Assembly (NCBI GenBank): GCA_964348575.1
Contig: CAYGDD010000001.1
Coordinates: forward strand, 1-49,511
Direction: 5' to 3'
DNA: 49,511 bases
Source: an uncultured Candidatus Saccharibacteria bacterium
GTDB taxonomy: Bacteria > Patescibacteriota > Minisyncoccia > Phycocordibacterales > DATDSR01
How positions within the stretch are numbered: the first letter of the stretch is position 1; each line of letters begins with the position of its first letter. A program made the translations under genes and the position numbers. A model generated the notes under the pieces. It did no database searches and was not told where the DNA came from. It saw only the letters and a list, made by a program, of their open reading frames with translations. Of the stretch, positions 1-13,114 are shown in pieces.

Positions 1-51
1 AGCATTCGACTGATACTCGAAAGGTCCTAGGTTCGATCCCTAGAGCGCGCA
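1..51 (+). tRNA. tRNA-Ile(GAU), 3' portion (5' part lies upstream of the window)
   Basis: Anticodon stem TTCGA(5-9)/TCGAA(17-21) around loop CTGATAC, with anticodon GAT at 12-14. Variable loop AGGTC. T-stem CTAGG(27-31)/CCTAG(39-43) with loop TTCGATC. Acceptor 3' strand AGCGCGC(44-50), discriminator A51. CCA is not encoded. Confidence 0.7.
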
Positions 52-55
52 CAAG

Positions 56-310
56 ATGACATATGTTGTTTATGTTTTGCGAGGTTCTGATAGCAGGCTA
101 TATAAGGGCATGACTAACAATTTAGAAAGAAGGTTAAGTGAGCACAAAAGAGGGCACACATTTGCAACGCGAACAATGAAAGAATTGGAAGTGGTCTACA
201 AGGAGGAGTACGATAGTGTGCTAGACGCCAGAAGAAGAGAGTTATTTTTAAAAACTGCATCTGGACGCAAGTTTATTAAGCGGATACTCGAAACCCGCCC
301 GAACGGCTGA
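56..310 (+). CDS. small GIY-YIG nuclease family protein (YhbQ/UPF0213-like, 84 aa)
   Basis: N-terminus YVVYVLRGSDSRLYKGMTNNLERRLSEHKRG matches the GIY-(10-11)-YxG plus R..H/E core of GIY-YIG domains. It starts 5 nt after the tRNA end. Confidence 0.85.
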   Translation: MTYVVYVLRGSDSRLYKGMTNNLERRLSEHKRGHTFATRTMKELEVVYKEEYDSVLDARRRELFLKTASGRKFIKRILETRPNG

Positions 311-392
311 ACATCCGCCCGAACGAATGTCCATTCGGACGGGCCGTTCAGTCGGGCGGGGGTCCTAGGTTCGATCCCTAGAGCGCGCACAA
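283..392 (+). repeat. second, incomplete copy of the tRNA-Ile 3' part, split by a 67-nt hairpin-forming insert
   Basis: 283-293 equals 12-22 (GATACTCGAAA) and 361-392 equals 23-54 (32/32 nt). Between them, 294-360 is self-complementary (CCCGCCCGAACGGC...GCCGTTCAGTCGGGCGGG with an inner CGAACGAATG/CATTCGGACG stem). No matching 5' acceptor strand (GCGCGCT) occurs upstream, so this is not a functional tRNA. Confidence 0.8.
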
Positions 393-617
393 ACAGTTAG
401 TTTGCTTAATTTTTGTGGAAAAGGTTCGTGCTTGACTGGGCTTTTTGACGTATACTTAATATATTGGCAGAGATGCGTCTGTGCTTTTAATGCTTGTATT
501 AAAGTGAAGAAAAAACTCTCAAACAAAATCATTGACATAAGGGTAAATAGCGGTCATCACAAGGAGGTGATCAAGCTCAAATCTGACACATTTATAGAGA
601 AGCTTGAACGCCTCTGG

Positions 618-2297
618 ATGGCCCTAGGGGTGATGACCCGTAGAGTAACCGTGTTTGTCCTCTTGTTTGCACTAGTTTTGGGTAGGTCGTACTTTGCAAG
701 TGCTAATACTGCTTATTTTTTCCCAAAAGCATGTTTGGGTGATTGGAAAAATGTTAGTGTACTTAGCCAAAAGTCTAATCCCTCGTATAGTGAGGGATTA
801 CTGGAAGGCGAGTATGCTTTTTTAAATCCTGGTGATGTGGGGAGATTTTTTTGTGGTAATTGGGAGGGTGCTATCCCAGAGGATTCTGAGGTGAAGGAAT
901 TAAAGCTAATCATCGACATTGCCATAGACGATCATCCAAGAGTCGAGATCATGCCGGCCTTGATTGAAAATTCTCAAACTACGCTTATAGAAGAAGGGTT
1001 GCAACAGATCTCGAGCTCTAGTCAGAGCACCACCTCATCTAACGCTCTGGAGAAGATTATGGATAGATTGAAAGAACCAGAAAATAGCTCGGCTCATGCG
1101 CCAGTCGAAGAGGATAAGCCAGAGGCAGAAGAGGAAAAGCCAATTAGCCTAAATGTAAGAAGCCTTTTCACTCGTATTGTGTTTGCCGAAGAGGTAGCCA
1201 AAGATGAGAAGCCTGATGAGGTTGCCCCAGCTCCATGGGTAGTGCCGGTAGAAGAGATTGTCAAGAAGACTGTGGAAGTGCCAGCAGAGAGTCCCACAGA
1301 GACGAGCGTAGATGCTGAGGTAGACCTCGATACAAACACGAACACAAATCCAGCCACGACCTCGGTAATAGAGCAAAAGCGCACATTAGAGACAGTAAAG
1401 AAAGTAAAGACTGAAAAAAAAGTTGAGAGTATAGAAGCTGGGGTGGTGGCGGGCACTTCTACAGTCCAGGAAGATGTTGCCTTAGGTGGGGGTGAGGCGG
1501 TAGAGGAGGTAGCTGAAGAGGTGGTGGATGCAACAGCCGAAGAGGTGATAATGGGCATAACAGACGGGGTTGTAGCCCCAGAGCAACTTATGACGGTGGC
1601 ATATTCCATTGACGGAGATAATTGGGTGGAGATTGCAACCTTAGACAGAAGCATGGTGGGGAGGCAGGAGTTGTCATTACCTCTTAACAGCTTTACTGAC
1701 TTACACAAGATGCAGATAAGCATACAAACAACTAAGGCTCTAAGTGTTATCGATACTGTGTATGTAAAGAACTTTTATCTAGCTGCTTCGTTTATAAGCA
1801 CGAAGAAGGTCAAAGAAGTGATGATTGATGGCAATGTTGAGTTAGAGCCTGTTGATCTTGAGCAAGTTTTATCCCATTTTGATTATTCACACATGGCAAA
1901 TAATGACCTAGGGCACGTGCTATCGGTGGCAAGTTCAGAGACTGCCGAGGATGCACTGTATCTTATTGACACAAAGACTAATAAGGCTTATAAAATGGTA
2001 CTAGATGTAAAACTAAGTGCAGGGATATCCATAAGATCGAAGGAGAGCAAATTTTATTGGGTAAGTGCAGGTAAGGGGACCTTAAACTCTTTCGATCCGC
2101 GTACTAATATGTTGAGGAAAAAGGGTTTAGCCCCTATTAATCCTTCGTTGGGTGAAACTGACACTGTCAGGATGGCAGATGATGACTTCGATGTTATTTG
2201 GATGGGGAGCGACCTATACTTCTACAGAGAGGACTGGGGCCAGGTGTTTGGGGACGATTTTGGTGACGTGACAGCTAAGCTCTTGGAGTTAAATTAG
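618..2297 (+). CDS. membrane-anchored acidic surface protein, unknown function (start uncertain; ORF is open from 402)
   Basis: ATG at 618 precedes the hydrophobic segment VTVFVLLFALVLG. A long E/V/A/P/T-rich low-complexity linker follows, then a C-terminal globular part. It lies directly upstream of the giant gene (stop 2295-2297, next ATG 2300). Confidence 0.55.
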   Translation: MALGVMTRRVTVFVLLFALVLGRSYFASANTAYFFPKACLGDWKNVSVLSQKSNPSYSEGLLEGEYAFLNPGDVGRFFCGNWEGAIPEDSEVKELKLIIDIAIDDHPRVEIMPALIENSQTTLIEEGLQQISSSSQSTTSSNALEKIMDRLKEPENSSAHAPVEEDKPEAEEEKPISLNVRSLFTRIVFAEEVAKDEKPDEVAPAPWVVPVEEIVKKTVEVPAESPTETSVDAEVDLDTNTNTNPATTSVIEQKRTLETVKKVKTEKKVESIEAGVVAGTSTVQEDVALGGGEAVEEVAEEVVDATAEEVIMGITDGVVAPEQLMTVAYSIDGDNWVEIATLDRSMVGRQELSLPLNSFTDLHKMQISIQTTKALSVIDTVYVKNFYLAASFISTKKVKEVMIDGNVELEPVDLEQVLSHFDYSHMANNDLGHVLSVASSETAEDALYLIDTKTNKAYKMVLDVKLSAGISIRSKESKFYWVSAGKGTLNSFDPRTNMLRKKGLAPINPSLGETDTVRMADDDFDVIWMGSDLYFYREDWGQVFGDDFGDVTAKLLELN

Positions 2298-2299
2298 GC

Positions 2300-5200
2300 A
2301 TGCTAAGAAAGTTATACAAAGCAAGCAGTAAGGTAAAGAAAGTCTACAAAGTAGGAGGTATTTTTCTGCTAGCTTTTGTATTGCTGACCACTACGTATTG
2401 GCCGAACTTGTTTGGTGAGAAGTCCCAAACCGCAGAGGCCTCGCTTACCTCCACGGATAACCAATACGCGATCTCAATAGGCCCAATTGCGGGCAACACC
2501 GGTGCCAACTATGCCTTTGCCACTTTATTTAACCCAAGTGGTTCGGGTAAAACTGCCGTGGTAACAAGAATCCGCATAGGCGTGGATAATATTGCAGCAG
2601 CAAATTATGTGGGTATGACAATTAGGCGAATTTCAAGTGCTTCTGCGGGTACGCAGATTGTCGCAGGGGACATTCCAAAGAAAAACAAATACAGTCCCAA
2701 CTCTATCATGGAAGTGCGACACACAAACGTGACTGTGGGCTTAAGTGGGAGTGTGGACTCAAGAATAAGTTCCCTAACCGCGCCCGGAGCAGTGGGAGCA
2801 TATATAGGCAAGGATGAGCTTGTTTTTGGAGACAACGAAAAGTTAATTCTACAACCAGGGGAAGGAGTAACCCTGTATCAGGAAGCGGCTGGTAACACAA
2901 ATCATGTAGTGCGCCTTACAGTCACTTGGCATGAACAAACCTCTGCTCCCTCTGCGGGCAATGAGTATATGATCTCTATGCCTAAAGTAGAGCTAGCCCT
3001 AACTGCGGGTATGGTTAGTAACGCCTTCTTTAACCCCCTAACTTCAGGCAAGGTCGCTAAGATTAAGAGGTTGAGCATAGATGTAGACTATGACGCGGCG
3101 GCCATATATACAAATCAATTTGCTATTTACAGAATTACCACATCGACCAATGGGACCCTTCTTTCGGCGGTCAACATCCCCAAGAAGCATTCTAGTACAG
3201 GAGATACGGCCATGCAGTTACGCTATACTACGGGTACTACAGGTTCTACTTTTGTTACCGTGACCCAAGTGGGAGGAGCGGATGCCAAGTTGATGAATGT
3301 TGCCCCCGGAGCGGTGGCCGGCCAACCACATTCGCATATGGAGTTCGTCTTTGATTCGGACGATGAATATCTAATAATCAAGCCCGGTGAGGGTATTGCA
3401 CTTACGAACTTAGATATTACCGCTGATGTTGATCAGATAAATCGTATGTCAATTGTTTGGGAGGAGGTGGCAGTGGCCAGTGGGCCTACAGCTGTAGATG
3501 AGTATATGATGAGTGTAGGCAAGGTTAACGGTAATACTACTAATCCATATAATTATATAACGATCTTTAATCCAGGTGGTTCCGGCAAGAATGCTATTGT
3601 GAAGCGCTTGGGGATTAGAGTGGATGCGGCCGCGGCCGCTGTGTATATACCTATGTCTGTTTTTCGAATTACAACAGCCTCTGCGGGGACTCTTGTCAGT
3701 TCGGCTGATATACCTAAGAAACATGCCAGCAGTAGTACGCCTGTGGTTGAGATAAGGCATACAAATGTCACGGCTACGTTGGCAGGGGGAACAGATTCGA
3801 AAATTATGGATATTACTACCCCAGGGGCGGTGGGGCAACTCATTGGTCACGAGGATTTAGTATTTGAAAATGCAGAAGATATGATTCTCCAACCGGGAGA
3901 GGGCTTGGTGCTAAGGCAGACTGGAGTGGGCGACATAGACTTTAGAGTCAAGCTTCTACTCGAATGGAAGGAACAAGCCACCTTACCAACCCCCTTAAAT
4001 CAATATGTGATCTCTGCAGGGCCAATAACTGGTAGTGCAACCAACCCGTACAACTATATTTCCTTTTTCAACACGAGTGGTTCGGGTAAAGTCATGGTGG
4101 TTAACCGGGTGGCCTTGCGCATAGACGCCGCCGCGGCCGCGGTGTATGTCCCTATTTTTATTAGGAGGACAAGCTCACATTCTGCGGGTACCCTTATTGC
4201 GGCCTCGGACATACCCAAGAAGCATGCTAGTTCTAGCAACTCTGTGATGAGTATTCGGCATACCAATGTCACGGCGGGCTTGGTGGGGAACTCCGATTCT
4301 AATCTGACTTCAGTGATCACCCCTGGAGCAGTGGGTTCAGCTGCCGCTCCTCAGATCTCTGGCTACGATGAATTCATTTATAATACTAATGATAAGATTA
4401 TACTAAGGGAGGGTGAGGGCTTTGTGGTGAGGCAAGAGGCGGTAGGTAGCACGGGTCTTAGAGTCAAGCTCTTGGTCGAGTGGGATGAGGAAAACACGGC
4501 CCCCGCAAGCAAGGACGAATATATTGCCTCGATTGGCCCAGTTGCGGGCAATACAGGCGAAATGTATACATATGCTTCGATATATAACCCCGCGGGTTCG
4601 GGTAAGGCCCTTGTGCTTAAGCGCCTGGGCTTAGATATGGCTCTTGTGGCGGCAGGTGTGTATGGGCCAATGACAATTGCAAAAATGAGCAACGCAACGG
4701 GCGGTACTCTGGTTGACAACGCAAATGTTTTGAAGAAAGACACAACCTCGGGAACGCCTATCGCAGAACTTAGGCATACGGGAGTCTCTACAAGTTCTAT
4801 TTGGAGTAGCTCCTCTCGTATTATGGGTAGAACCTCACCAGCAGTGCTTGGTCAAGGATTCGGCTTCAGTGAGGTTGTCTTTGCCAATGATCACCAGTTG
4901 GTTTTGTATGAGGGCGAGGGGTTGGCTCTGTATCACGAGCTTGCCCAAGACGGCGATCTTAGATCTAGGATGAGCGTAGTCTGGTTGGAGGTGGTGCCAC
5001 CACCCTCGGTGAGCATCTCTAGTGCTTATGACGAGATCTTTAACTACGGCGGAGTCGCCTCTACCTCGGCCTTGCTAACCGTTACCGACATAGATGGGGT
5101 ACTTACTACCACCAACAAACTCCGCATACCCATAGCCACTTCGAGTATTAACATGCTTTGGGACACTAGTATCACCACTCCCTCATACGGTGGCACTGGC

Positions 5201-7237
5201 TCAGGCAACGTCACTAATCCTGTGACATATGAGGGCGGGGGTTCAGTAGCCGTTATAAATGTAACCACCAACTTTAGTGCTGGTCAGACCCTTACGATAT
5301 CGGGTCTTAAACTCAAGAGCTTCAACACCGCTACTTCCTCCACCCCCGCTTACCTTGGTATCTTCGCCGATGGAGCTACCGATCAATCCCTTAATGCCAC
5401 CACCACCCAGTCTGCCGCCATAAAAGGTACCCTTTTCTTGGGTAATCACACTGCCGGTCAAGTAATTGACCAGTGGGACACCCAGACCCCAACCACATCA
5501 GTGCATTATCGCTTTGGCCTAGGGGCTTCGGGTGAGAGTATTAGTATCGCGACTACTACTATTTCCCTCTCTAGTATCACAGGTATTGATACTTCTAACT
5601 TTAGCTTCGCCCGTCTCTATTTTGATGCCAATAACGACGGCTATGCAGGTGCTTCTACCACAGCTAAGGCTTATCTACGGCCAAACTTTAACAAAAATAC
5701 CGGCTTGTCCGCATTTGGTTGTGCCATTAACTATCTATGTGTAGATGAGGATACCACCGATGACGACAGCACATTCGTTAACACAGCTGCTACCCTTACC
5801 ACCGATGAGACTTATACACTTGTGAACTCTACCACCACAGGTCATATCTCCAATGTAAGAGTGGTTAACCGGATGGGCTTAAATGGTGGGACTAACTACA
5901 CAGCCAACATCAGACATATGCTCAACATAAACGCCGTAAACTATAAATCCAACGCCACTACGAGTATCACCACTACAGGTTATCAAAATTATTCTTATGA
6001 TTGGGTTGTTAACCCAGCTACCGGCCTAGCTTGGCAATGGAAGGACTTGGATAACTTATCCTCGGGCATCTTCTTTGTAGGTATTGCGGGGACGAATTCA
6101 TTCAGATTTACCCAATCGTACGTGGAGGTTACTTATTGTACTGGGGATTGTCAGATAGGCTATGACGGCACGGTCTTTATCTCTGGTGGAAGTGGGTACA
6201 TAAATTTTGCCACCTCTTCTGCCTACTACGCAAACTCTACTGGAGCCACGGCCACTACGAGCCTGCTTGCTGTGCTTTCTATGACTGGCTTGGTGTCTGC
6301 CGACACTATGACTATGAGCTTTGCTTCAACTCAAGCTAGCTCCACCGGTGCCACAAGCACCAAGACAATTACTCCCACGGGCTCGGCCAGTAATATTACT
6401 CATACATTTGATATCAGCAATACCGCACCAGCTATTACCAACCATACATTCAATTCAGGTAACGCTATCAATCTCATAGAGGGTACCTATAAATGGGCCA
6501 CCAGCACTATGCTTATTACTGATGACCAGTTCTGCACCTCTATCACCAGCGTAACAGCCAAGGCCTACCTCGCTTCTACCACTAACTCGGGCACCCTCTG
6601 TGCCGAGAACGACCTTAACTGCTACATAGGCGTAGGCTCTACCACGGCAGTATCCAATTGCGTAGCCACCACTACGGGTGATACTTGCGGAGCTTCCGAT
6701 ACTACAGTGGAGTACGACTGTGGCTTCAAATTCTGGTATAACACTACACCCACCGACACGGGCTCATGGGCCTCTAGTATCTGGAGTGTCTCGGCCACGG
6801 CCACCGACTCGGGCGCCCTTACCGGCACAGCTACTAACACCAGTCAGTTAGTGGAGATTAACACTCTCTCGGCCTTTAGCATCAGCCCTACCACTATAAG
6901 TTATGGTTCGCTGGACCCTGGCACAGACTCCGGCTCGGTTAACGCCACTACCACTATCACCAATACTGGTAATAGCGATGTAGACCCTAGGCTGTCGGGC
7001 ACCGATATGACCTCTGGCCCTAACACTATCTTGGTAGGCCAGCAACAATATTTGGGTCTGCCCTTCATATACGGTGCGGGCACACCTCTTAGCGCGGTGG
7101 CGACCTTGCTTAACTTGCTCTTGCCTGCTCCAACTTCTACCACTACGCCCGTGCTTGACTACGTGTCTTGGGGCTTAGGCGTACCAGCCGGTAAACCGGC
7201 CGGTTCGTACACGGGTACTAACACAATACAGATATAA
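2300..7237 (+). CDS. giant surface protein (1645 aa): N-terminal TM anchor, 5 tandem ~170-aa modules, S/T-rich region, Cys-containing C-terminal region
   Basis: Uninterrupted 4.9-kb ORF. N-terminal hydrophobic helix GGIFLLAFVLLTTTYW. Internal repeats are visible in translation. The C-terminal ~270 aa is paralogous to the next gene. Confidence 0.85.
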   Translation: MLRKLYKASSKVKKVYKVGGIFLLAFVLLTTTYWPNLFGEKSQTAEASLTSTDNQYAISIGPIAGNTGANYAFATLFNPSGSGKTAVVTRIRIGVDNIAAANYVGMTIRRISSASAGTQIVAGDIPKKNKYSPNSIMEVRHTNVTVGLSGSVDSRISSLTAPGAVGAYIGKDELVFGDNEKLILQPGEGVTLYQEAAGNTNHVVRLTVTWHEQTSAPSAGNEYMISMPKVELALTAGMVSNAFFNPLTSGKVAKIKRLSIDVDYDAAAIYTNQFAIYRITTSTNGTLLSAVNIPKKHSSTGDTAMQLRYTTGTTGSTFVTVTQVGGADAKLMNVAPGAVAGQPHSHMEFVFDSDDEYLIIKPGEGIALTNLDITADVDQINRMSIVWEEVAVASGPTAVDEYMMSVGKVNGNTTNPYNYITIFNPGGSGKNAIVKRLGIRVDAAAAAVYIPMSVFRITTASAGTLVSSADIPKKHASSSTPVVEIRHTNVTATLAGGTDSKIMDITTPGAVGQLIGHEDLVFENAEDMILQPGEGLVLRQTGVGDIDFRVKLLLEWKEQATLPTPLNQYVISAGPITGSATNPYNYISFFNTSGSGKVMVVNRVALRIDAAAAAVYVPIFIRRTSSHSAGTLIAASDIPKKHASSSNSVMSIRHTNVTAGLVGNSDSNLTSVITPGAVGSAAAPQISGYDEFIYNTNDKIILREGEGFVVRQEAVGSTGLRVKLLVEWDEENTAPASKDEYIASIGPVAGNTGEMYTYASIYNPAGSGKALVLKRLGLDMALVAAGVYGPMTIAKMSNATGGTLVDNANVLKKDTTSGTPIAELRHTGVSTSSIWSSSSRIMGRTSPAVLGQGFGFSEVVFANDHQLVLYEGEGLALYHELAQDGDLRSRMSVVWLEVVPPPSVSISSAYDEIFNYGGVASTSALLTVTDIDGVLTTTNKLRIPIATSSINMLWDTSITTPSYGGTGSGNVTNPVTYEGGGSVAVINVTTNFSAGQTLTISGLKLKSFNTATSSTPAYLGIFADGATDQSLNATTTQSAAIKGTLFLGNHTAGQVIDQWDTQTPTTSVHYRFGLGASGESISIATTTISLSSITGIDTSNFSFARLYFDANNDGYAGASTTAKAYLRPNFNKNTGLSAFGCAINYLCVDEDTTDDDSTFVNTAATLTTDETYTLVNSTTTGHISNVRVVNRMGLNGGTNYTANIRHMLNINAVNYKSNATTSITTTGYQNYSYDWVVNPATGLAWQWKDLDNLSSGIFFVGIAGTNSFRFTQSYVEVTYCTGDCQIGYDGTVFISGGSGYINFATSSAYYANSTGATATTSLLAVLSMTGLVSADTMTMSFASTQASSTGATSTKTITPTGSASNITHTFDISNTAPAITNHTFNSGNAINLIEGTYKWATSTMLITDDQFCTSITSVTAKAYLASTTNSGTLCAENDLNCYIGVGSTTAVSNCVATTTGDTCGASDTTVEYDCGFKFWYNTTPTDTGSWASSIWSVSATATDSGALTGTATNTSQLVEINTLSAFSISPTTISYGSLDPGTDSGSVNATTTITNTGNSDVDPRLSGTDMTSGPNTILVGQQQYLGLPFIYGAGTPLSAVATLLNLLLPAPTSTTTPVLDYVSWGLGVPAGKPAGSYTGTNTIQI
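2456..5008 (+). repeat. five tandem coding repeats (504, 537, 501, 516, 495 nt) inside the giant gene
   Basis: Module starts are at 2456 (DNQYAISIGP), 2960 (NEYMISMPK), 3497 (DEYMMSVGK), 3998 (NQYVISAGP) and 4514 (DEYIASIGP). Recurrent motifs are FNPxGSGK, DAAAAAVY, SAGTL, DIPKKHxSS, RHTNVT, PGAVG, ILxPGEG and RVKLLxEW. Confidence 0.9.
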
Positions 7238-7256
7238 CGGGCTGGGGATAACAATA

Positions 7257-7285
7257 GTGACGTCTAGGCCAAAAGTGAGTATAAT
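7257..7285 (+). promoter_or_regulatory. candidate sigma70-type promoter for the 7357 gene
   Basis: GTGACG (7257-7262), a 17-nt spacer, then TATAAT (7280-7285) in the 119-nt intergenic gap. Confidence 0.35.
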
Positions 7286-7356
7286 TAGAATCAAATTATG
7301 TTTTGGATTCTGAGTTATTATTAAGAACAGGATGTTGAAGTATAAAGTTAAATATA

Positions 7357-8331
7357 ATGACGAGATATAATTATTCGCAGTCCCTAATTGCCTTCGCTAT
7401 TTTTGCAGTTGGACTTTTCGTTTTTGTCTCTGTGGTAATCGCGGATGTGGCCAACACAAGTGTCTCTGTGGGCAATGCCGCTCCTACCATCTCCGTTAAC
7501 TTTAATGGGGGTAATGCCATCACTCTTAACGAAGCCACATATGCTTACGCCACTGCCACTCTTACTATTACAGACGCTAACGGTTGTAACAGTATTAACT
7601 ACGTTAAGGCGACAGCCTTCCTAGCCTCTACCTCCGCCCCTGCCAGTACCATATGTACTGGTAATGATAACAATTGCTATCCTACCTCGTCGTCTACTGC
7701 AAGTTATCCAGCTTTATCCGACGCGGTGTGTTTGGCTACTACCACAGGTAATCAATGTACGGGTGGTCTAGATACTTCTGTAGTCTATGACTGTGGCTTT
7801 AAGCTCTGGTTCATTGCCGAGGCCACCGACGCCAGCGCCCCTTCTTGGGCCTCTAGCATCTGGGCCGTGGCCGCCTCTACCTCTGATGGTCTTGCCTCTA
7901 CTACAGCTTCTAATACTAACCAAACAGTAGAGATTAATACTCTCGCCGCTCTAGATCTTACGGGTACGCTTGCCTACGGTTCGGTATCAGCCGGCACCAA
8001 CACCGGTAGCACCAACTCCACCACCACCGCCACCACCACTGGCAACATAGCTATTGACGCTCAAGTATATGGTAATGCCTCGTATATGGAATCTGGAGCT
8101 AACACACTCCATATCGCAAGGCAGAAGTATCAGGCCACGCCCTTTATCTATAGTTCGGCTGGAGTACACTTAACTTCTACCACTACGCCCAACCTAGAGT
8201 TCGCCAGTGTTAAGACATTAAGTACCACTTCAGTAGAAACGCAATTAGTCTCTTGGGGTATAGCTATTGAGTCTGGTCAGGCTAACGGTACCTACACGGG
8301 CTCCAGTACCCTCGCAGCCGTAGCCGACTAG
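7357..8331 (+). CDS. secreted or anchored protein paralogous to the C-terminal region of the giant protein (324 aa)
   Basis: N-terminal hydrophobic segment LIAFAIFAVGLFVFVSVVIA. It aligns by eye with giant-protein residues from about APAITNHTFNSGNAINL onwards. Six Cys are conserved and shared motifs include VxYDCGFKxW, SWASSIW, VEINTL and VSWG(I/L). Confidence 0.8.
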   Translation: MTRYNYSQSLIAFAIFAVGLFVFVSVVIADVANTSVSVGNAAPTISVNFNGGNAITLNEATYAYATATLTITDANGCNSINYVKATAFLASTSAPASTICTGNDNNCYPTSSSTASYPALSDAVCLATTTGNQCTGGLDTSVVYDCGFKLWFIAEATDASAPSWASSIWAVAASTSDGLASTTASNTNQTVEINTLAALDLTGTLAYGSVSAGTNTGSTNSTTTATTTGNIAIDAQVYGNASYMESGANTLHIARQKYQATPFIYSSAGVHLTSTTTPNLEFASVKTLSTTSVETQLVSWGIAIESGQANGTYTGSSTLAAVAD

Positions 8332-8401
8332 TCCTAATTGAGCACAGAGGGGAGAGGAGGGTTCTTTACTTATCTAGTAAAATTGGATACAGTTTAGTTT
8401 A

Positions 8402-9301
8402 ATGATACATAACTACCTAAGGCTATATGCGGGTACCCTCTTATTGGTGCTAACCTTCTTGGCTCCAGGGGTAGTGTCTGCGGGCTTCGGCGTCTCACCT
8501 GCCAAAATTATTGAGACCCGTCTAGTCAAAGGCTCTGTGCTAGACCGGGTGGTATACTTCGTCCAAGGTACACCAGACGCGGACTTGGCCATTACATTGT
8601 CTGTTGATGACGGTGAGATCGGTAGTTGGATAAGTATTACTCCCACAGACAATGTCATAATACCTAAGGGTATCCAACAGTTTCCGGTTACCATTAGGAT
8701 TACAGTGCCTCGCGACGCCAAGACTGGTATATATAAGGGCTTTATTCGCGCCTCGGCAAGACCAGTTGAGACATTAGAGCAAGGTTCTGGTTCTGGTGTG
8801 AGTATTGTGGCTGGGGCTGTAGCCACCATAGAGCTCACAGTTGGAGAGGGCGTGTATTATGAGTACGTCATTAGGAATCTAGACCTCAAGAATATCAAAG
8901 AACATCAGTCGCCTTCCGTTGACCTATCTATAGAGAATAAGGGCAATGTGCCCGCCGGCCCGGCCGAGGCTTCGTTTGAATTGTTTAACAAGTATGGGGA
9001 CGTACGTCTTGCCTATGTGCAGGGAGTTAAGATTGCTAGACTTGAACCCTTTATAACCAAGACTGTAAATGTAGAGTTCCCCCTGCCTCTTAGGCTCTCT
9101 GTGGGTGAGTACTGGGGCTTGGTTAGAGTTTATAACGACAGTGGCGGGACAGTGCGTGAGTTTAAGGGAGTATTTAACGTAACCAAGTCCACCTTCTTAG
9201 ACAAATACAGCCAGATGATAAGTATGGGCTTGGGCATCCTTTTGTTATTAGTGTTCCTACTGTTTATTCTTAAGAGGATAAGAAATAGGTCTAAGAAATG
9301 A
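8402..9301 (+). CDS. signal peptide + two beta-sandwich-like domains + C-terminal TM anchor (architecture resembles DUF916/DUF3324 or CARDB/NEW3)
   Basis: Signal-like LLLVLTFLAPGVVSA followed by GFGVSP. The second half contains a CARDB-like stretch (VDLSIENKGNVPAGPAEASFELFN). C-terminal TM MGLGILLLLVFLLFIL is followed by the basic tail KRIRNRSKK. Confidence 0.6.
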   Translation: MIHNYLRLYAGTLLLVLTFLAPGVVSAGFGVSPAKIIETRLVKGSVLDRVVYFVQGTPDADLAITLSVDDGEIGSWISITPTDNVIIPKGIQQFPVTIRITVPRDAKTGIYKGFIRASARPVETLEQGSGSGVSIVAGAVATIELTVGEGVYYEYVIRNLDLKNIKEHQSPSVDLSIENKGNVPAGPAEASFELFNKYGDVRLAYVQGVKIARLEPFITKTVNVEFPLPLRLSVGEYWGLVRVYNDSGGTVREFKGVFNVTKSTFLDKYSQMISMGLGILLLLVFLLFILKRIRNRSKK

Positions 9302-10146
9302 GATGGTTATTTTACTTCACGATGAGTATATTAGTAGTCGGGGGAGCACTACAGATATATGCCGAGACATCAGTAGTTACTGTGACGGTGATAATCCCCG
9401 AATGTAATGACACTCTTGATAATGACGGCGATACCTTTGTAGACTACCCTTCTGACCCCGGATGTACTAGTCTCTTTGATAACGACGAGACTGACCCAGT
9501 GGCTCCACAGTGCAATGATGGCATAGATAACGACGGCGATTCTAGAATAGATTTTCCGACTGACCTTGGTTGTGACAGCCTAACGGACAATGATGAGTCT
9601 GGCGAGGTTGTTGTCACACCGACTACCACCCCCGGCGGGGGTAACGGTCCAATCTTGCCTACGGTCACTCTAACTGGTACACAGGTGATCTTCTCGGGTA
9701 GGGCCTTCCCCGGGGCAAGTATCACCGCCTTAGCTGATGGCAAGGTGGTAGGTGTCACTAGGGTAGGTGTTGATAACTTGTTTAGATTAAGCATTGAAGA
9801 GATCCCTCCCGGAGTGTACATATTCAACATCTACGCCACAGATCCCTTAGGGCGTACTCTCCGGCCCCAGTCGTTTGCTTTAGAGCTTAGCCGAGGCTTG
9901 ATTACAGAGATTAAAGGAATCGTGTTCACGCTATCAAGTGAGATTGATAAAATAACCGGCTGTTCTAATTTGGGTGACCTTAATGCTGATTGTAAGGTTA
10001 ATCTTACTGATTTTTCCATCGCTGCTTATTGGTGGGGCAGGACCCTAGATGCTGACTTCTTGAAATTGGAAGCCAGAAGATTGAGTGGCGATGGCAAAAT
10101 TAGTCTGGAAGACTTTAGCATCCTCGCTTATTATTGGACAGGATGA
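9298..10146 (+). CDS. dockerin-containing secreted protein with two Cys/Asp-rich Ca-binding-type repeats and an Ig-like middle domain
   Basis: Two copies of CND(T/G)xDNDGDxxxD(Y/F)PxDxGCxSLxDNDE. The C-terminus carries duplicated dockerin-type segments, DLNADCKVNLTDFSIAAYWW and SGDGKISLEDFSILAYYW. ATGA overlap with the upstream gene. Confidence 0.75.
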   Translation: MRWLFYFTMSILVVGGALQIYAETSVVTVTVIIPECNDTLDNDGDTFVDYPSDPGCTSLFDNDETDPVAPQCNDGIDNDGDSRIDFPTDLGCDSLTDNDESGEVVVTPTTTPGGGNGPILPTVTLTGTQVIFSGRAFPGASITALADGKVVGVTRVGVDNLFRLSIEEIPPGVYIFNIYATDPLGRTLRPQSFALELSRGLITEIKGIVFTLSSEIDKITGCSNLGDLNADCKVNLTDFSIAAYWWGRTLDADFLKLEARRLSGDGKISLEDFSILAYYWTG

Positions 10147-11102
10147 TTATGGGAACTCAAAGCACAAAACTCAAAGCACAAAACTCAAAGTCGGTTAGAT
10201 TGATTTCGTATTGTTTTTTTATCTTCGCTTTTACCATACTCTGCATACAATTTACGAGTAATACAGCCTATGGGGCTTGGCTTGGTTTCGGCCTAGAGTC
10301 AGTTGAGGTGACGGTTAATAAGGACTTCTCTGTGGACTTATTGCTTGATCCAGAGGGTGGAGATATTAACGCTCTTGAGCTAGAGCTTAGTTATGACCCG
10401 ACTAAATTATATTTCAAATCTGGGCCAACAGGTAAGTCTGTGGTAAGTATCTGGCTTACTCCTCCGGTGGCCACAGAAGGGCTTATAACTATGGCGGGCA
10501 TTATGCCCGGAGGCTTTAGTGGGTTAATAGACATAGCTACAGGCAAGAAGAGGGCGGGCAATATTGCTTCATTCGTCTTTAGGCCACTGGTAGTGGGCAC
10601 GTCTACAATTGAATTTGAGACCACCAAAGTCATCAAGAATGATGGTCTTGGCACAGAGCTTAAGTTACCTGCTTATAATTTAGTTGTCAGGGCTAACCAA
10701 AGTGCAGTAGGCTCGGTAGATATTTACGAATATAATGACACAGAACCCCCGGATGTATTTGAACCAACCTTGATAAAGTCAAAATATATCTATGATAATA
10801 AATATACGCTCATCTTTAATGCTAGCGATGGCGGTTCGGGCGTAGAGAGATACGAAGTGAGTGAGGGTGAGGATAAGTTTAAGAACGCTAAGAGCCCGTA
10901 CCTTTTGGAAGATCAGGCTTTAGAGGGTATAATATTAGTTAGGGCGATTGACTTCGCCGGTAACGCCCGGACTGTTGCGCTTGAGCCTTATTCCGCAAGC
11001 AATAGTGGTAAGTGGACAGGCTCGCAGGTACTTATAGTAATCGCATTTGTCATATTGTTAATTGTATGGATGATAAGAAGAAAATTCCAAACTCACATCT
11101 AG
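10143..11102 (+). CDS. cohesin-domain protein with C-terminal TM anchor (start uncertain: TTG 10134, ATG 10143 or ATG 10149)
   Basis: Cohesin-like region FSVDLLLDPEGGDINALELELSYDPTKLYF...ASFVFRPLVVGTSTIEF. An Ig-like domain follows (GGSGVERYEVS). C-terminal TM VLIVIAFVILLIVWMI. Confidence 0.7.
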   Translation: MIMGTQSTKLKAQNSKSVRLISYCFFIFAFTILCIQFTSNTAYGAWLGFGLESVEVTVNKDFSVDLLLDPEGGDINALELELSYDPTKLYFKSGPTGKSVVSIWLTPPVATEGLITMAGIMPGGFSGLIDIATGKKRAGNIASFVFRPLVVGTSTIEFETTKVIKNDGLGTELKLPAYNLVVRANQSAVGSVDIYEYNDTEPPDVFEPTLIKSKYIYDNKYTLIFNASDGGSGVERYEVSEGEDKFKNAKSPYLLEDQALEGIILVRAIDFAGNARTVALEPYSASNSGKWTGSQVLIVIAFVILLIVWMIRRKFQTHI

Positions 11103-13114
11103 CCCACTTTGCGTATCTCGGTGCGGTGTTGCTTGTGGCCTCATTTTTATTCTATCCGACACTTAGTGCCCAAAGCGAGACAGGAACCTCACTATATCTT
11201 ACGCCCAGCACCGGTAACTATGCGGTGGACGATACTTTCTCTGTATCTGTATATATTAATACTGGGGGATTGTCTGTTAATGCCATAGAGTCAGCCATCA
11301 CTTTTCCACCTGATAAGTTGCAAATAGTTTCGCCCTCTATTGGCAAGTCTGTTATCGGGGTGTGGGTTGGCCAACCTAGCTTCTCTAATTCGGCGGGCAC
11401 AATCAACTTCCGAGGGGCTATCCCCAACCCGGGTCTTATTACCTCACAGGGGCTTATCTCTACCTTTACCTTTAGGGTTAAGTCTGTGGGTAAGGCTGTT
11501 GTTAAGTTCACCGACAGCTCCAAAGTTTTGCTTAATGATGGCAAGGCCACCAATGTATTAAGTAATACCAGTGGGGCCATCTATGATCTTGTCTTACCCC
11601 CTCCTCAAGGACCTATTGTCGTATCTTCTACTAACCCCGACCAATCCAAGTGGTATCCCAACAGTTCAGTCTCTTTTTCCTGGTCAGGTGATAGCGAACT
11701 AGACAAGTTTAGCTATGTTTTAAACAGTGAGCCTGTCAGTAACCCAGATAATATCCAAGAGTCGGGCTCCACTGGTATCACTTATGCCGACCTTGAGGAC
11801 GGCATACACTATTTCCATATCAAGGCTTACAGAGATGGCGTATGGGGTGGTGTGACCCATTTTGCAGTCAAGGTAGACCAAACTCAGCCGGCAGATTTTA
11901 GGCTAATTATTGAGCCCCGTAAGACCACCGCCAATAGAAAGCCTATCATAATCTTTGACACCATGGACGGCGCCTCTGGAGTAGACTATTTTGAGCTTAA
12001 GATGATTTCCCTTAGCGTAGGAGCTGTTAATTTGGGCCAAGTTTCTAATGAGTTTTTTATTGAGAGTACTAGCCCCTATATCCCAGAGCTTGAGATTGGC
12101 AAGTATGATTTAGTGCTCAGAGCATTCGATAAAGCTGGGAATTACAGAGAGGTTAAAGAACGGATAACTATCCTCCCGCCGGCTTTGGGGGCTATCGGTT
12201 TCTTGTGGCCCTCTACGTGGCTTGGCTTCCTGCTTTTATTGCTCCTCCTCCTTATTAGTGCCCACTTGTCTAGGAAGTATTATCTTTGGCATCTTAGACT
12301 ATCCCACCAGCATGCTATGGGCCCAACGGCTCAGGGTGACATCGCAGAGAAGCTAGCGACGCTTAAAGAATATCAGAAGAAGTACGGCCATCTAGTTGTT
12401 GTCCTAACCTTGCTAGCCACATTGTTTGGCAATGCTGGCATGGCTCGAGCGGACATTGATGACCCTAACCGGCCGGCCCCCCCAAGTGTCACTCTTATAT
12501 CTGAAAATATTAGCAATGAAGAACTCTTCTACATTGGTGGTAGACACAACGTCCCAGGGAGTATCGTGACCATTTACCTCCAAGGGGATAGTGGCGAGAC
12601 AAGTAGCTTCCTGACAAGTACTAATCAGAAAGGGGACTGGTTCTACTCTATGACCCGATTCTTGCCGGCTGGGGAGTATAGTGTCTGGACCCAGGCGCGT
12701 TCGGGTAATGTAGAGAGTCCCCCTTCTGCCCAAACCAAGTTTAATGTAGAGAAGACCGCCTTCTCTGTAGGGGGTTCTAGGATCAGCTATCAACTTATCT
12801 TTGGCCTTGTCTCTATTATCTCGTTTATTCTAAGCTTAATCTTACTATTACGCGCGTACTATTATTACAAAGCAGGCAAGAAGAAGCACGCTCTCCTAAC
12901 CAAAGAGATAGAAGAGGCCACAGCCTCTGTGCATAGAGGCTTCGCCATTATTAGACGCGATATCCAAGCAGAACTTGAACTGGTGAAGAAGGCTAAACTT
13001 TCGGGTAGCTTACGGGCAGAGGAAGAGAAGCGCGAAGCGCAACTGCTTAGCGACCTTAGTAGTATAGAGGACTCTATAGGAAGGGAAGTGTGGGATATTA
13101 AGCAGTACAGCTAA
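11066..13114 (+). CDS. cohesin-domain polytopic membrane protein (about 680 aa)
   Basis: ATG 11066 (MDDKKK) precedes a signal-like segment. Cohesin-like region FSVSVYINTGGLSVNAIESAITFPPDKLQIVS...STFTFRVKSVGKAVVKF. Further Ig-like domains and three hydrophobic segments follow (WLGFLLLLLLLLISAHL, LVVVLTLLATLFG, LIFGLVSIISFILSLILLL). The tail is charged and coiled-coil-like. Confidence 0.7.
   Translation: MDDKKKIPNSHLAHFAYLGAVLLVASFLFYPTLSAQSETGTSLYLTPSTGNYAVDDTFSVSVYINTGGLSVNAIESAITFPPDKLQIVSPSIGKSVIGVWVGQPSFSNSAGTINFRGAIPNPGLITSQGLISTFTFRVKSVGKAVVKFTDSSKVLLNDGKATNVLSNTSGAIYDLVLPPPQGPIVVSSTNPDQSKWYPNSSVSFSWSGDSELDKFSYVLNSEPVSNPDNIQESGSTGITYADLEDGIHYFHIKAYRDGVWGGVTHFAVKVDQTQPADFRLIIEPRKTTANRKPIIIFDTMDGASGVDYFELKMISLSVGAVNLGQVSNEFFIESTSPYIPELEIGKYDLVLRAFDKAGNYREVKERITILPPALGAIGFLWPSTWLGFLLLLLLLLISAHLSRKYYLWHLRLSHQHAMGPTAQGDIAEKLATLKEYQKKYGHLVVVLTLLATLFGNAGMARADIDDPNRPAPPSVTLISENISNEELFYIGGRHNVPGSIVTIYLQGDSGETSSFLTSTNQKGDWFYSMTRFLPAGEYSVWTQARSGNVESPPSAQTKFNVEKTAFSVGGSRISYQLIFGLVSIISFILSLILLLRAYYYYKAGKKKHALLTKEIEEATASVHRGFAIIRRDIQAELELVKKAKLSGSLRAEEEKREAQLLSDLSSIEDSIGREVWDIKQYS

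What the first reader, a model, noticed from the sequence alone, without database searches (positions are those of the whole stretch)
1..392. Minimal GIY-YIG gene bracketed by a duplicated tRNA-Ile 3' part, the second copy split by a 67-nt hairpin
The last 43 nt of the tRNA region (12-54) reappear downstream of the 84-aa GIY-YIG gene. They occur as 283-293 plus 361-392, separated by a self-complementary 67-nt insert placed exactly in the variable-loop position. The last codons of the nuclease gene (KRILETRPNG) are encoded by the tRNA-like copy. A roughly 340-bp unit made only of a nuclease gene between target-site-like repeats looks like a footprint of nuclease-driven homing or integration into a tRNA gene. 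No integrase is present. Alternatively the hairpin-bearing tRNA half is a structured RNA in its own right.
Basis: partly seen in the sequence, partly recalled or inferred. Interest (0 to 1): 0.6.

Follow-up and report, generated by a model that had tools for sequence, protein, structure and literature searches.

The report
Nuclease cassette nested in tRNA-Ile gene
A tiny nuclease gene and a spare working tRNA-Ile gene sit inside an older tRNA-Ile gene split at its anticodon, and each dead half carries a small GC-rich hairpin; this layout recurs at tRNA genes across many bacterial phyla and I found no published description of it.

Summary
Positions 12-54 recur as 283-293 plus 361-392, with a 67-nt hairpin at the variable-loop position, and the 84-aa GIY-YIG ORF (56-310) ends inside that copy.

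The window shows only part of the structure. Three independent metagenome contigs extend the locus upstream. They show the 16S rRNA 3' end, then a 5' stump of tRNA-Ile carrying the same 36-nt hairpin in its D-loop and ending inside the anticodon. A 24-nt spacer, the intact tRNA-Ile, the nuclease gene and the 3' stump follow. With the hairpins removed, the two stumps rebuild the tRNA exactly (76/76). One resident tRNA gene was therefore split by an insert of about 330 bp carrying a replacement tRNA and the nuclease gene.

A same-genus genome has the same split. There the stumps belong to a different, internally complementary tRNA-Ile allele. Two other relatives have plain tRNA-Ile genes.

Of 80 relatives' loci, 68 lie beside a same-strand tRNA and 62 have a partial tRNA copy. 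The hairpins share CCYGCC...GGCRGG ends, and hairpin type follows the nuclease tree.

Best reading: a selfish cassette pairing an Ssn/Slx1-like nuclease with a cognate hairpin, lodged in tRNA genes. Nuclease activity and the mobility mechanism are inferred, not shown.

The parts
1..51 (+). Intact tRNA-Ile(GAU), tRNA positions 23-73. Positions 1-22 lie upstream of the contig end (L021 794-815).
   Evidence: Rfam tRNA 37.2 bits, 5'-truncated. Full gene on L021 794-866, 74.5 bits, and ARAGORN tRNA-Ile(gat).
12..54 (+). Repeat copy 1: anticodon G34 to the discriminator base plus the CAA trailer (43 nt).
56..310 (+). 84-aa single-domain GIY-YIG nuclease gene. The ATG lies 4 nt after the tRNA 3' end, with no Shine-Dalgarno sequence and no promoter-like site nearby. 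The stop codon lies inside the hairpin.
   Evidence: ORF list. Pfam PF01541 at 1.2e-10. Y6, Y16, G18, R26, H30 and E62 are invariant in 23 homologues. AF2 pLDDT 90.6; best folds are UPF0213 and Slx1. No promoter-like site.
283..293 (+). 3' stump, first piece: tRNA positions 34-44 (GATACTCGAAA). It overlaps codons R76-T80 of the ORF.
294..360 (+). 67-nt composite hairpin at tRNA position 44|45. The outer 36-nt element (294-312 plus 344-360) differs by 1 nt from the hairpin in the upstream 5' stump.
   Evidence: Decomposition and folds. RNA fold of 283-392.
313..343 (+). Inner 31-nt hairpin of the same family (ATCCGCCCGAACGAATGTCCATTCGGACGGG), nested in the loop of the outer element.
   Evidence: By eye 24 of 30 positions match the C10 copy, with compensatory stem changes.
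361..392 (+). 3' stump, second piece: tRNA positions 45-73 plus CAA, identical to 23-54.
   Evidence: 32/32 BLAST match.

Best explanation
Window 1-392 is the right-hand part of a composite of about 510 bp lying just downstream of the 16S rRNA gene. A resident tRNA-Ile(GAU) gene was split inside its anticodon, after A35, with GA present on both sides. The insert is about 330 bp and consists of a 24-nt spacer, an intact tRNA-Ile and an 84-aa single-domain GIY-YIG nuclease gene. The cell keeps a working tRNA, and the two dead halves remain as stumps. Each stump carries a 36-nt GC-rich palindromic mini-element: in the D-loop at 21|22 and in the variable loop at 44|45. The right-hand element has a second element nested in its loop.

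The locus belongs to a widespread family of tRNA-embedded 'mini GIY-YIG plus hairpin' cassettes.

Proposed working (inferred):
1. The nuclease is a structure- or hairpin-specific enzyme of the Ssn/Slx1/UPF0213 kind, and the CCYGCC...GGCRGG palindrome is its cognate repeat.
2. A nuclease-made break in or beside a tRNA gene is repaired from a cassette-bearing copy. The conserved tRNA sequence serves as the homology arm, and the other side is joined imprecisely.
3. The nuclease gene is therefore copied together with enough tRNA to rebuild an intact gene, and the displaced part is left as a stump.
4. The tRNA (here rRNA-tRNA) transcription unit supplies the promoter. tRNA 3' processing would free a nearly leaderless mRNA, and the hairpin closes it.
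5. A hairpin inside a stump also breaks up the direct repeats that could otherwise delete the cassette.

Shown: the anatomy, the recurrence, the plain sites and the nuclease-hairpin association. Inferred: the nuclease activity, its target, the repair route and the expression route.
For: Anatomy:
- L021/L022/L023 are identical to the window over 3310 nt and extend it upstream.
- The stumps minus their hairpins, with GA counted once, equal the intact tRNA plus CAA, 76/76.
- The 16S 3' end lies at L021 1-327.

Nested insertion:
- In same-genus G002 the two stumps have acceptor strands GCGCGTG/CACGCGC and T-stems CCAGG/CCTGG. These pair with each other and differ from the intact copy (GCGCGCA/TGCGCGC, CTAGG/CCTAG).
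- Joined, the G002 stumps are called tRNA-Ile by ARAGORN.

Plain sites: G003 and G019.

Family survey of 80 loci:
- 68 have a same-strand tRNA within 120 nt: 55 downstream, 9 upstream as in the window, 4 both.
- 62 have a partial tRNA copy on the far side, and at least 32 of those are split by a 17-54-nt GC palindrome.
- The first tRNA position after the insert is 22 in 17 of about 36 cases. The flanks are TA| in 35/53 and |GA in 28/53.
- A mirror-type cassette sits at tRNA-Pro in the same genome.

Nuclease-hairpin link:
- The closest homologues (56-63% identity) carry CCCGCCCG...CGGGCGGG hairpins.
- Hairpin type changes 11 times on the protein tree, against 23.8 +/- 1.7 in shuffles.
- Gene copy number and hairpin count correlate over 41 genomes, Spearman 0.68.
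- The hairpin pattern gives 105 matches against 10 for the reversed-pattern control.

Enzyme: the GIY-YIG catalytic residues are conserved, and the fold is closest to UPF0213 and Slx1.

Precedents: Ssn nucleases cut ssDNA beside their flanking hairpins (PMC11893778). T4 SegB recognises a tRNA T-arm motif and drives homing of tRNA genes (PMC2330249).

Expression: no promoter-like site in L021 300-1400.
Against: - No biochemical or population evidence of mobility.
- G002 and G018 have stumps with hairpins but no nuclease gene at the site. The nuclease gene is therefore not needed to keep the structure, and trans action has to be assumed.
- The inner ends of stumps across the family are spread over tRNA positions about 25-44 and beyond. 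There is no single cut site and no fixed distance from the hairpin.
- The intact tRNA inside the insert has the same sequence as the supposed target, so immunity of the filled allele is unexplained.
- In this genome the stumps are 100% identical to the intact copy. A local duplication cannot be excluded for this locus alone.
- The genome-level correlation is not corrected for relatedness.
Confidence: 0.6

Rival explanations
1. Passive passenger. Partial tRNA duplications and hairpin insertions arise on their own, for example by hairpin-induced replication slippage or template switching at highly transcribed tRNA genes. The small GIY-YIG genes persist there only because a tRNA transcription unit gives a promoterless gene expression. 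The nuclease does not cut tRNA genes and does not drive its own spread.
For: Stumps with hairpins exist without any nuclease gene between them: G002, G018, and tandem tRNA-Ser 5' stubs at C18. Stump ends are variable. Hairpins insert at many non-tRNA sites, including ORFs. The nuclease genes lack their own promoter and Shine-Dalgarno sequence.
Against: 68 of 80 relatives lie beside a tRNA on the same strand, usually within 0-20 nt. In contrast 0 of 8 distant viral relatives do. Hairpin type follows the nuclease tree. In G002 the insert brought a different tRNA allele, which points to transfer and not local slippage.
Confidence: 0.2
2. Domesticated host nuclease. The GIY-YIG protein is an Ssn-type single-stranded-DNA nuclease that the host uses with its hairpin repeats, for example to control incoming transforming DNA. 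The tRNA stumps are old scars of no present relevance.
For: Ssn proteins are 94-aa single-domain GIY-YIG enzymes whose genes are flanked by cognate hairpins and which modulate transformation (PMC11893778). There are nine paralogues in a 677-kb genome, and the hairpins are dispersed in the genome.
Against: Multiple diverged paralogues sit at different tRNA genes, with fresh stumps 100% identical to the intact copy. This looks like ongoing spread and not one conserved host gene. The family is patchy: absent from 7 of 41 relatives. The hairpin sequence differs from NTS/SRM.
Confidence: 0.1
3. Remnant of an integrase-type genomic island. A tyrosine-integrase element integrated at the anticodon loop of tRNA-Ile and duplicated the 3' part. 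Later deletions left only a cargo nuclease gene.
For: A 43-nt duplication running from the anticodon loop to just past the tRNA 3' end is the classic att footprint of such islands (bioRxiv 10.1101/2022.07.05.498093; own knowledge of integrase sublocation classes).
Against: There is no integrase gene and the unit is about 330 bp. A 5' stump is also present, which integrase insertion does not produce. The same minimal layout occurs in dozens of unrelated genomes, mostly with 5' stumps. The stumps carry hairpins.
Confidence: 0.05
4. The hairpin-bearing tRNA half (283-392) is a functional structured RNA in its own right.
For: The fold is strong (z = -3.6) and the region lies in a transcribed context downstream of the 16S gene and the tRNA.
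Against: There is no Rfam match. The hairpin is a palindromic DNA repeat found in both orientations, at D-, variable- and T-loops, in intergenic sites and in-frame in ORFs. The tRNA part is an exact copy of the neighbouring gene and shows no independent conservation.
Confidence: 0.03

Closest known systems
Ssn family of site-specific ssDNA nucleases with NTS/SRM hairpin repeats (Chenal et al. 2025, PMC11893778)
   Same: A single-domain GIY-YIG protein of about 85-95 aa with no DNA-binding domain. The gene is flanked on both sides by a cognate 20-50-nt GC-rich hairpin repeat. Copies of the repeat are dispersed in the genome. Repeat type co-varies with nuclease lineage. The authors noted an IS-like 'repeat-gene-repeat' layout.
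   Different: The hairpin sequence is different: CCCGCCCGAACG...CGGGCGGG against CGTCATTCCCGCG..GCGGGAATC. Here the hairpins sit inside duplicated tRNA-gene pieces, and the gene abuts an intact tRNA. The word tRNA does not occur in that paper. Assignment to cd10448 and ssDNA-specific cutting could not be tested. The best PDB relatives are UPF0213 proteins and Slx1.
Phage T4 SegB, a free-standing GIY-YIG homing endonuclease in the tRNA gene cluster (PMC2330249)
   Same: A GIY-YIG gene embedded among tRNA genes. Its recognition site contains a conserved tRNA stem-loop motif. It promotes inheritance of itself together with the neighbouring tRNA genes.
   Different: By my own recollection, SegB is a much larger protein with a DNA-binding part. 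It is a phage gene. It leaves no tRNA stumps and has no associated hairpin repeat. Relatives of the window protein are nearly absent from viral contigs (8 loci, none beside a tRNA).
Mobile endonuclease ORFs of fungal mitochondria that carry a replacement gene end (Allomyces atp6, Glomus; own knowledge, also named in earlier scan notes)
   Same: The endonuclease gene travels with a copy of the adjoining part of the host gene. That copy replaces the resident part, and the displaced resident piece stays downstream as a relic. This matches the layout intact tRNA, nuclease gene, 3' stump.
   Different: The hosts are protein-coding organellar genes. The endonucleases are larger. No hairpin repeat is involved. 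Here a whole tRNA plus a 5' stump is involved.
Integrase-mediated islands at tRNA genes (att duplication of the tRNA 3' part)
   Same: A direct repeat of about 43 nt of the tRNA 3' part, starting in the anticodon loop.
   Different: No integrase, an insert of about 330 bp, a 5' stump also present, and hairpins in the stumps.
Palindromic mini-elements: REP/REPIN-RAYT, Rickettsia palindromic elements (own knowledge)
   Same: Short GC-rich palindromes that are dispersed, sometimes nested, and tolerated in-frame inside protein genes. They are linked to a small number of enzyme genes.
   Different: The candidate enzyme is a GIY-YIG nuclease, not an HUH transposase. The elements are only 20-40 nt long. 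They show a strong preference for the A21|G22 site of tRNA-gene copies.

Membership tests
GIY-YIG nuclease superfamily (PF01541) | Profile match above the curated cut-off | tested here: met
   42 bits against a cut-off of 22.6, E 1.2e-10, residues 3-71.
GIY-YIG nuclease superfamily (PF01541) | Catalytic Tyr/Tyr/Arg/His/Glu residues and the three-strand beta sheet with helices | tested here: met
   Y6, Y16, G18, R26, H30 and E62 are invariant in 23 homologues. AF2 pLDDT 90.6 with element order E-E-H-E-H-H. Foldseek hits UPF0213 BH0048 (E 3.7e-5) and Slx1.
Ssn family (cd10448) | Single-domain protein of about 90 aa with no extra domain | tested here: met
   84 aa, and the GIY-YIG domain covers residues 3-71.
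Ssn family (cd10448) | Gene flanked by cognate hairpin repeats, and repeat copies dispersed in the genome | tested here: met
   A 36-nt hairpin lies 116 nt upstream of the ATG and the same hairpin overlaps the stop codon. Eight more family copies occur in the genome against 0 in the control. Spearman 0.68 between gene and hairpin counts.
Ssn family (cd10448) | Repeat matches the NTS/SRM motif (CGTCATTCCCGCGMAVGCGGGAATCYRG) | tested here: not met
   The hairpin is CCCGCCCGAACGGCTGAATCCGTTCAGTCGGGCGGG against the motif quoted. The palindrome core differs. Compared by eye only.
Ssn family (cd10448) | Assignment to cd10448, or BLASTP E<1e-10 to N. meningitidis SsnA | not testable with these tools
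   No CDD library is on hand, the SsnA sequence is not held, and the paper has no supplements held. NCBIfam gives no hit.
Ssn family (cd10448) | Cuts only single-stranded DNA, a few nt 5' of the hairpin | not testable with these tools
   This needs biochemistry. The distance from hairpin to stump end across loci is broad, 4-20 nt, which gives no support either way.
Free-standing homing endonuclease gene (SegB-like) | Filled and empty versions of the same site in related genomes | tested here: inconclusive
   G003 and G019 have plain tRNA-Ile. G000 is filled. G002 is filled but without the nuclease gene. No empty allele was found within the species.
Free-standing homing endonuclease gene (SegB-like) | A sequence-reading DNA-binding domain attached to the nuclease domain | tested here: not met
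   Only the about 80-aa catalytic domain is present.
Free-standing homing endonuclease gene (SegB-like) | Nuclease-dependent super-Mendelian inheritance, or cleavage of the empty site | not testable with these tools
   This requires an experiment.
Integrase-type tRNA island | A tyrosine or serine integrase gene next to the tRNA | tested here: not met
   The only ORF between the repeats is the 84-aa GIY-YIG gene.
tRNA intron (group I or other) | Intron fold or Rfam match between the tRNA halves | tested here: not met
   No intron hit in window 1-1000 or L021 1-1300. A true group I intron in another tRNA of the same genome is detected (C5, 61.2 bits), so the method works. Also, the insert contains a complete tRNA.
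tRNA-embedded mini GIY-YIG + hairpin cassettes (recurrent in this scan; not found in the literature searched) | Small GIY-YIG ORF within about 120 nt of an intact same-strand tRNA | tested here: met
   The ATG lies 4 nt after the tRNA. 68 of 80 relatives show the same.
tRNA-embedded mini GIY-YIG + hairpin cassettes (recurrent in this scan; not found in the literature searched) | A partial copy of that tRNA on the far side of the ORF, split by a CCYGCC...GGCRGG palindrome | tested here: met
   283-293, then the hairpin, then 361-392. 62 of 80 loci have a partial copy and at least 32 have a split copy.

The most novel reading that the evidence does not exclude
The mini GIY-YIG gene and its CCYGCC...GGCRGG palindrome form a two-part mobile system of a kind not yet described. 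In this reading, a structure-specific nuclease with no DNA-binding domain recognises its own hairpin, or the loops of tRNA-gene DNA folded as a cloverleaf. It breaks tRNA genes at loop positions: D-loop 21|22, the anticodon, the variable loop and the T-loop. It is then copied in together with enough tRNA to rebuild the essential gene. Because tRNA sequences are nearly universal, they would serve both as landing pad and as expression platform, which would allow spread between phyla. The nested locus here (a tRNA inside a tRNA, and a hairpin inside a hairpin) would be a direct record of repeated rounds.
Probability: 0.35. Interest if true: 0.85.

Novelty: new variant of a known kind. Interest (0 to 1): 0.65.

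Why it matters
If the reading holds, tRNA genes of many bacterial phyla host a very small selfish element that annotation pipelines miss: about 300 bp comprising a nuclease gene plus a 20-40-nt hairpin. The nuclease is annotated as a hypothetical 'GIY-YIG family protein', and the stumps and hairpins are not annotated at all.

It would explain many orphan tRNA fragments and contig breaks at tRNA genes in metagenome-assembled genomes.

It would give the recently discovered Ssn-type nucleases a natural role as mobile-element enzymes.

It would also offer a compact nuclease whose specificity may be set by a DNA hairpin and not by a protein domain.

This locus is a useful test case. It preserves both stumps, the replacement tRNA, an intact nuclease gene and two or three hairpin copies within about 510 bp, and a close relative carries a second allele state.

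Tried and rejected
- Empty allele: looking up the exact downstream 621-aa protein returned only the same three filled contigs. Two exact-pattern scans of JGI metagenomes, one for an empty right junction and one for either allele, found nothing. The species is simply absent there.
- Closer relatives: none above 63% identity in 5.8 billion proteins. The ends of the mobile unit therefore could not be set by DNA-level comparison.
- NCBIfam gave no family. PHROGs and PADLOC gave only marginal hits.
- Fixed cut distance: I tested whether stump ends lie at a fixed distance from the hairpin, as expected for an Ssn-like cut. The distribution is broad, so this gives no support.
- Universal anticodon breakpoint: rejected. 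This holds for the window, G002, L024 and some others, but not for the family as a whole.
- Ordinary terminator: some genomic copies of the hairpin are followed by T-runs. However, the shared 12-nt core, the in-frame ORF copies and the D-loop site argue for an inserted element.
- tRNA intron, split tRNA and integrase island: considered and rejected (see the membership tests).
- Literature: five searches found no paper linking small GIY-YIG genes to tRNA stumps. This covers only the held library.
Full report
**1.
The window starts inside a tRNA. Rfam aligns 1-51 to tRNA model positions 22-71 (37.2 bits, flagged as cut at the 5' end). ARAGORN finds nothing because the 5' part is missing. BLAST of the first 420 nt against the whole 677-kb assembly returns 23-54 = 361-392 (32/32). 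Positions 12-22 and 283-293 are the same 11 bases. The 67 nt in between form one long hairpin. The ORF 56-310 encodes 84 aa with a clear GIY-YIG domain. The catalytic residues are conserved in 23 homologues. The predicted fold is confident and is closest to UPF0213 proteins and Slx1. The ORF's last codons run through the 11 tRNA-like bases and stop inside the hairpin.

**2. The window shows only part of the structure.**
The window is the first 49.5 kb of contig C1 of the assembly. The exact 84-aa protein occurs on three further contigs from three ENA assemblies. These are identical to the window over 3310 nt and extend it upstream by up to 815 nt. In L021 coordinates (window position = L021 position minus 815) the order is:
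- 16S rRNA 3' end, 1-327.
- A spacer.
- A 5' stump of tRNA-Ile, 699-769. It consists of GCGCGCTTAGCTCAGTTGGTA, then a 36-nt hairpin CCCGCCCGAACGGCTGAATCCGTTCAGTCGGGCGGG, then GAGCATTCGACTGA.
- A 24-nt spacer.
- The intact tRNA-Ile(GAU), 794-866 (74.5 bits).
- The nuclease gene, 871-1125.

The 5' stump ends after the second anticodon base, and the 3' stump starts at the first. With the hairpins removed and the shared GA counted once, the two stumps give the intact tRNA plus its CAA trailer, 76 of 76. The simplest reading is one resident tRNA-Ile gene split in its anticodon by an insert of about 330 bp. That insert brings a spacer, a complete tRNA-Ile and the nuclease gene.

The hairpin in the 3' stump is the same 36-nt element (35/36 identical). 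It carries a related 31-nt hairpin nested at its loop.

**3. Relatives support a nested insertion.**
Same-genus genome G002 has a 5' stump ending at the same base (…CGACTGA). This is followed by 70 nt, an intact tRNA-Ile and 46 nt. A 3' stump starting at TACTCG follows, with a 33-nt hairpin insert. The two G002 stumps carry acceptor strands GCGCGTG/CACGCGC and T-stems CCAGG/CCTGG. These pair with each other but differ from the intact copy by compensatory changes. Joined, they are called tRNA-Ile by ARAGORN. The stumps are therefore the halves of an older functional allele, and the intact gene arrived with the insert.

G002 has no nuclease ORF in its insert, but it has four paralogues elsewhere. 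G003 (same genus) and G019 have plain tRNA-Ile genes. G018 has an intact tRNA-Ile followed by a T-arm copy with a 36-nt hairpin in the T-loop and no nuclease gene.

**4. The locus belongs to a large family.**
The genome holds nine paralogues, five of them beside tRNA genes. The one at tRNA-Pro(GGG) is a mirror image: 5' stump with a GC insert, nuclease gene, then an intact tRNA that overlaps the ORF's stop. The closest homologues elsewhere (56-63% identity) sit at tRNA-Ala, tRNA-Asp and tRNA-Phe. Each has a 5' stump split by a CCCGCCCG…CGGGCGGG hairpin.

I surveyed 80 loci from different species:
- 68 have a same-strand tRNA within 120 nt of the ORF: 55 downstream, 9 upstream as in the window, 4 both.
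- 62 have a partial copy of that tRNA on the far side.
- At least 32 of those copies are split by a 17-54-nt GC palindrome.
- The palindromes start CC[CT]GCC and end GGC[AG]GG.
- They sit mostly between A21 and G22 (GGTA|H|GAGC).

The upstream-tRNA class to which the window belongs includes L046, L072 (also tRNA-Ile), L100, L033, L107, L064 and L091. In these the 3' copy starts at various positions and the hairpin lies in the D-, variable- or T-loop. The anticodon breakpoint is therefore not universal; stump ends are spread over positions about 25-44 and beyond.

Host labels span Patescibacteria lineages, Bacteroidota, Ignavibacteriota, Chlorobiota, Nitrospirota, Planctomycetota, Pseudomonadota and others. 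Only eight distant relatives occur in 2.9 million viral contigs, and none is beside a tRNA.

**5. The hairpin is a separate small element tied to the nuclease.**
The pattern CCYGCCYG…CRGGCRGG occurs at eight more places in this genome and never in the reversed-pattern control. Five of these copies lie in-frame inside long ORFs and are read as P-A-R…G-G. Others look like intergenic terminator hairpins. Across 41 related genomes, nuclease gene number and hairpin number correlate (Spearman 0.68). Genomes without the gene have almost no hairpins. This correlation is not corrected for relatedness. On a tree of the 80 proteins, hairpin type changes 11 times, against 23.8 ± 1.7 for shuffled labels.

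This matches the Ssn family. Those are 94-aa single-domain GIY-YIG enzymes that cut single-stranded DNA next to a cognate hairpin repeat flanking their genes (PMC11893778). That paper does not mention tRNA, and its hairpin motif differs from the one here. I could not test assignment to its CDD family.

**6. How it probably works.**
Shown: the anatomy, the recurrence, the plain and filled sites, and the nuclease-hairpin association.

Inferred:
- The protein is an active structure- or hairpin-specific nuclease.
- It makes breaks in or beside tRNA genes.
- These breaks are repaired from a cassette-bearing copy. Conserved tRNA sequence provides homology on one side, and the other side is joined imprecisely. 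This would explain why an intact tRNA is always regenerated, why the displaced part survives as a stump of variable length, and why both mirror forms exist.

T4 SegB shows that a GIY-YIG enzyme can read a tRNA stem-loop motif and drive inheritance of tRNA genes (PMC2330249).

On expression, I found no promoter-like site between the 16S gene and the downstream gene. The ATG lies 4 nt after the tRNA. Expression most likely rides on the rRNA-tRNA transcript and on tRNA 3' processing (inference). A hairpin inside a stump shortens the direct repeats that could delete the cassette, which may explain why stumps nearly always carry one (inference).

Open problems:
- The intact tRNA inside the insert is identical to the presumed target.
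- Stumps persist without a local nuclease gene in G002 and G018.
- There is no sharp cut position.

**7. Rivals.**
A passive-passenger model cannot be excluded (about 0.2). In it, stumps and hairpins arise on their own and the gene only borrows tRNA promoters. A domesticated Ssn-like host function is possible (about 0.1). An integrase-island remnant and a functional hairpin-tRNA RNA are unlikely for the reasons given in their entries.

**8. Novelty.**
Five full-text searches found no description of small GIY-YIG genes nested in duplicated tRNA genes. Known sources of partial tRNA genes in the library are integrase-borne elements and CRISPR spacers.

Earlier notes of this scan report the same kind of cassette in many other genomes. 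Those are unchecked AI notes. I re-derived the recurrence independently and did not count them as evidence.

This locus adds several things:
- a complete nested example with both stumps;
- the rarer 'tRNA upstream' orientation;
- a hairpin-in-hairpin nest;
- a relative whose stumps prove allele replacement;
- the in-frame ORF copies of the hairpin;
- a quantitative nuclease-hairpin link.

Noticed in passing
G000 contig C5:106-402, minus strand (locus L112): A group I intron (Rfam RF00028, 61.2 bits against a gathering score of 50) interrupts the anticodon loop of a tRNA that ARAGORN does not call. tRNA genes in this genome are hit by more than one kind of insert.
   Followed up: partly
G000 contig C18:13710-14003 (locus L114): Two tandem units of about 98 nt lie upstream of the intact tRNA-Ser(UGA). 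Each is made of the first 14 nt of that tRNA followed by a GC-rich hairpin. There is no GIY-YIG gene between them.
   Followed up: no
G000 contig C12:21845-22266 (locus L113): A mirror-type cassette at tRNA-Pro(GGG). A 5' stump of 24 nt, a 27-nt GC insert and 17 nt ends near the anticodon. The GIY-YIG ORF (21956-22192) and the intact tRNA follow. The ORF's stop codon lies inside the tRNA 5' end.
   Followed up: partly
G000 C34:1118-1156, C20:3156-3191, C10:1417-1446, C33:4655-4678, C11:22446-22469: Copies of the CCCGCC...GGCGGG hairpin lie in-frame inside long ORFs (584, 354, 735, 443 and 235 aa). They are translated as P-A-R...(S)-G-G, much like Rickettsia palindromic elements in protein genes.
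   Followed up: partly
L002 (G002) 1455-1645: The insert in the split tRNA-Ile of G002 is bounded by inverted repeats (CCCCAGAACCAATGTGC ... GCACATTGGTACGGGG). The replacement tRNA therefore sits in the 'loop' of a hairpin-like element, and its acceptor stem is extended by CCCGTCG/CGACGGG.
   Followed up: no
L006 (G032) 102-510: tRNA-Ile(GAU) is followed by a long perfect palindrome that includes the tRNA 3' end, then several T-arm-like fragments and a 26-nt copy starting in the anticodon loop. I saw no GIY-YIG gene by eye.
   Followed up: no
L025, L029, L030, L033, L039, L040 (downstream of the intact tRNA): In several 'tRNA downstream' cassettes, a block of 120-160 nt separates the intact tRNA from a further 3' stump that begins in the T-loop. 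The block often contains an inverted copy of the tRNA 3' end. Its nature is unknown.
   Followed up: no
window 402-13114 and other parts of the window: Earlier scan notes describe a pilus-like locus and several GC-rich orphan cassettes in this window. The gene directly downstream of the 3' stump (402-2297) belongs to that locus and appears to have its own upstream region after position 392.
   Followed up: no
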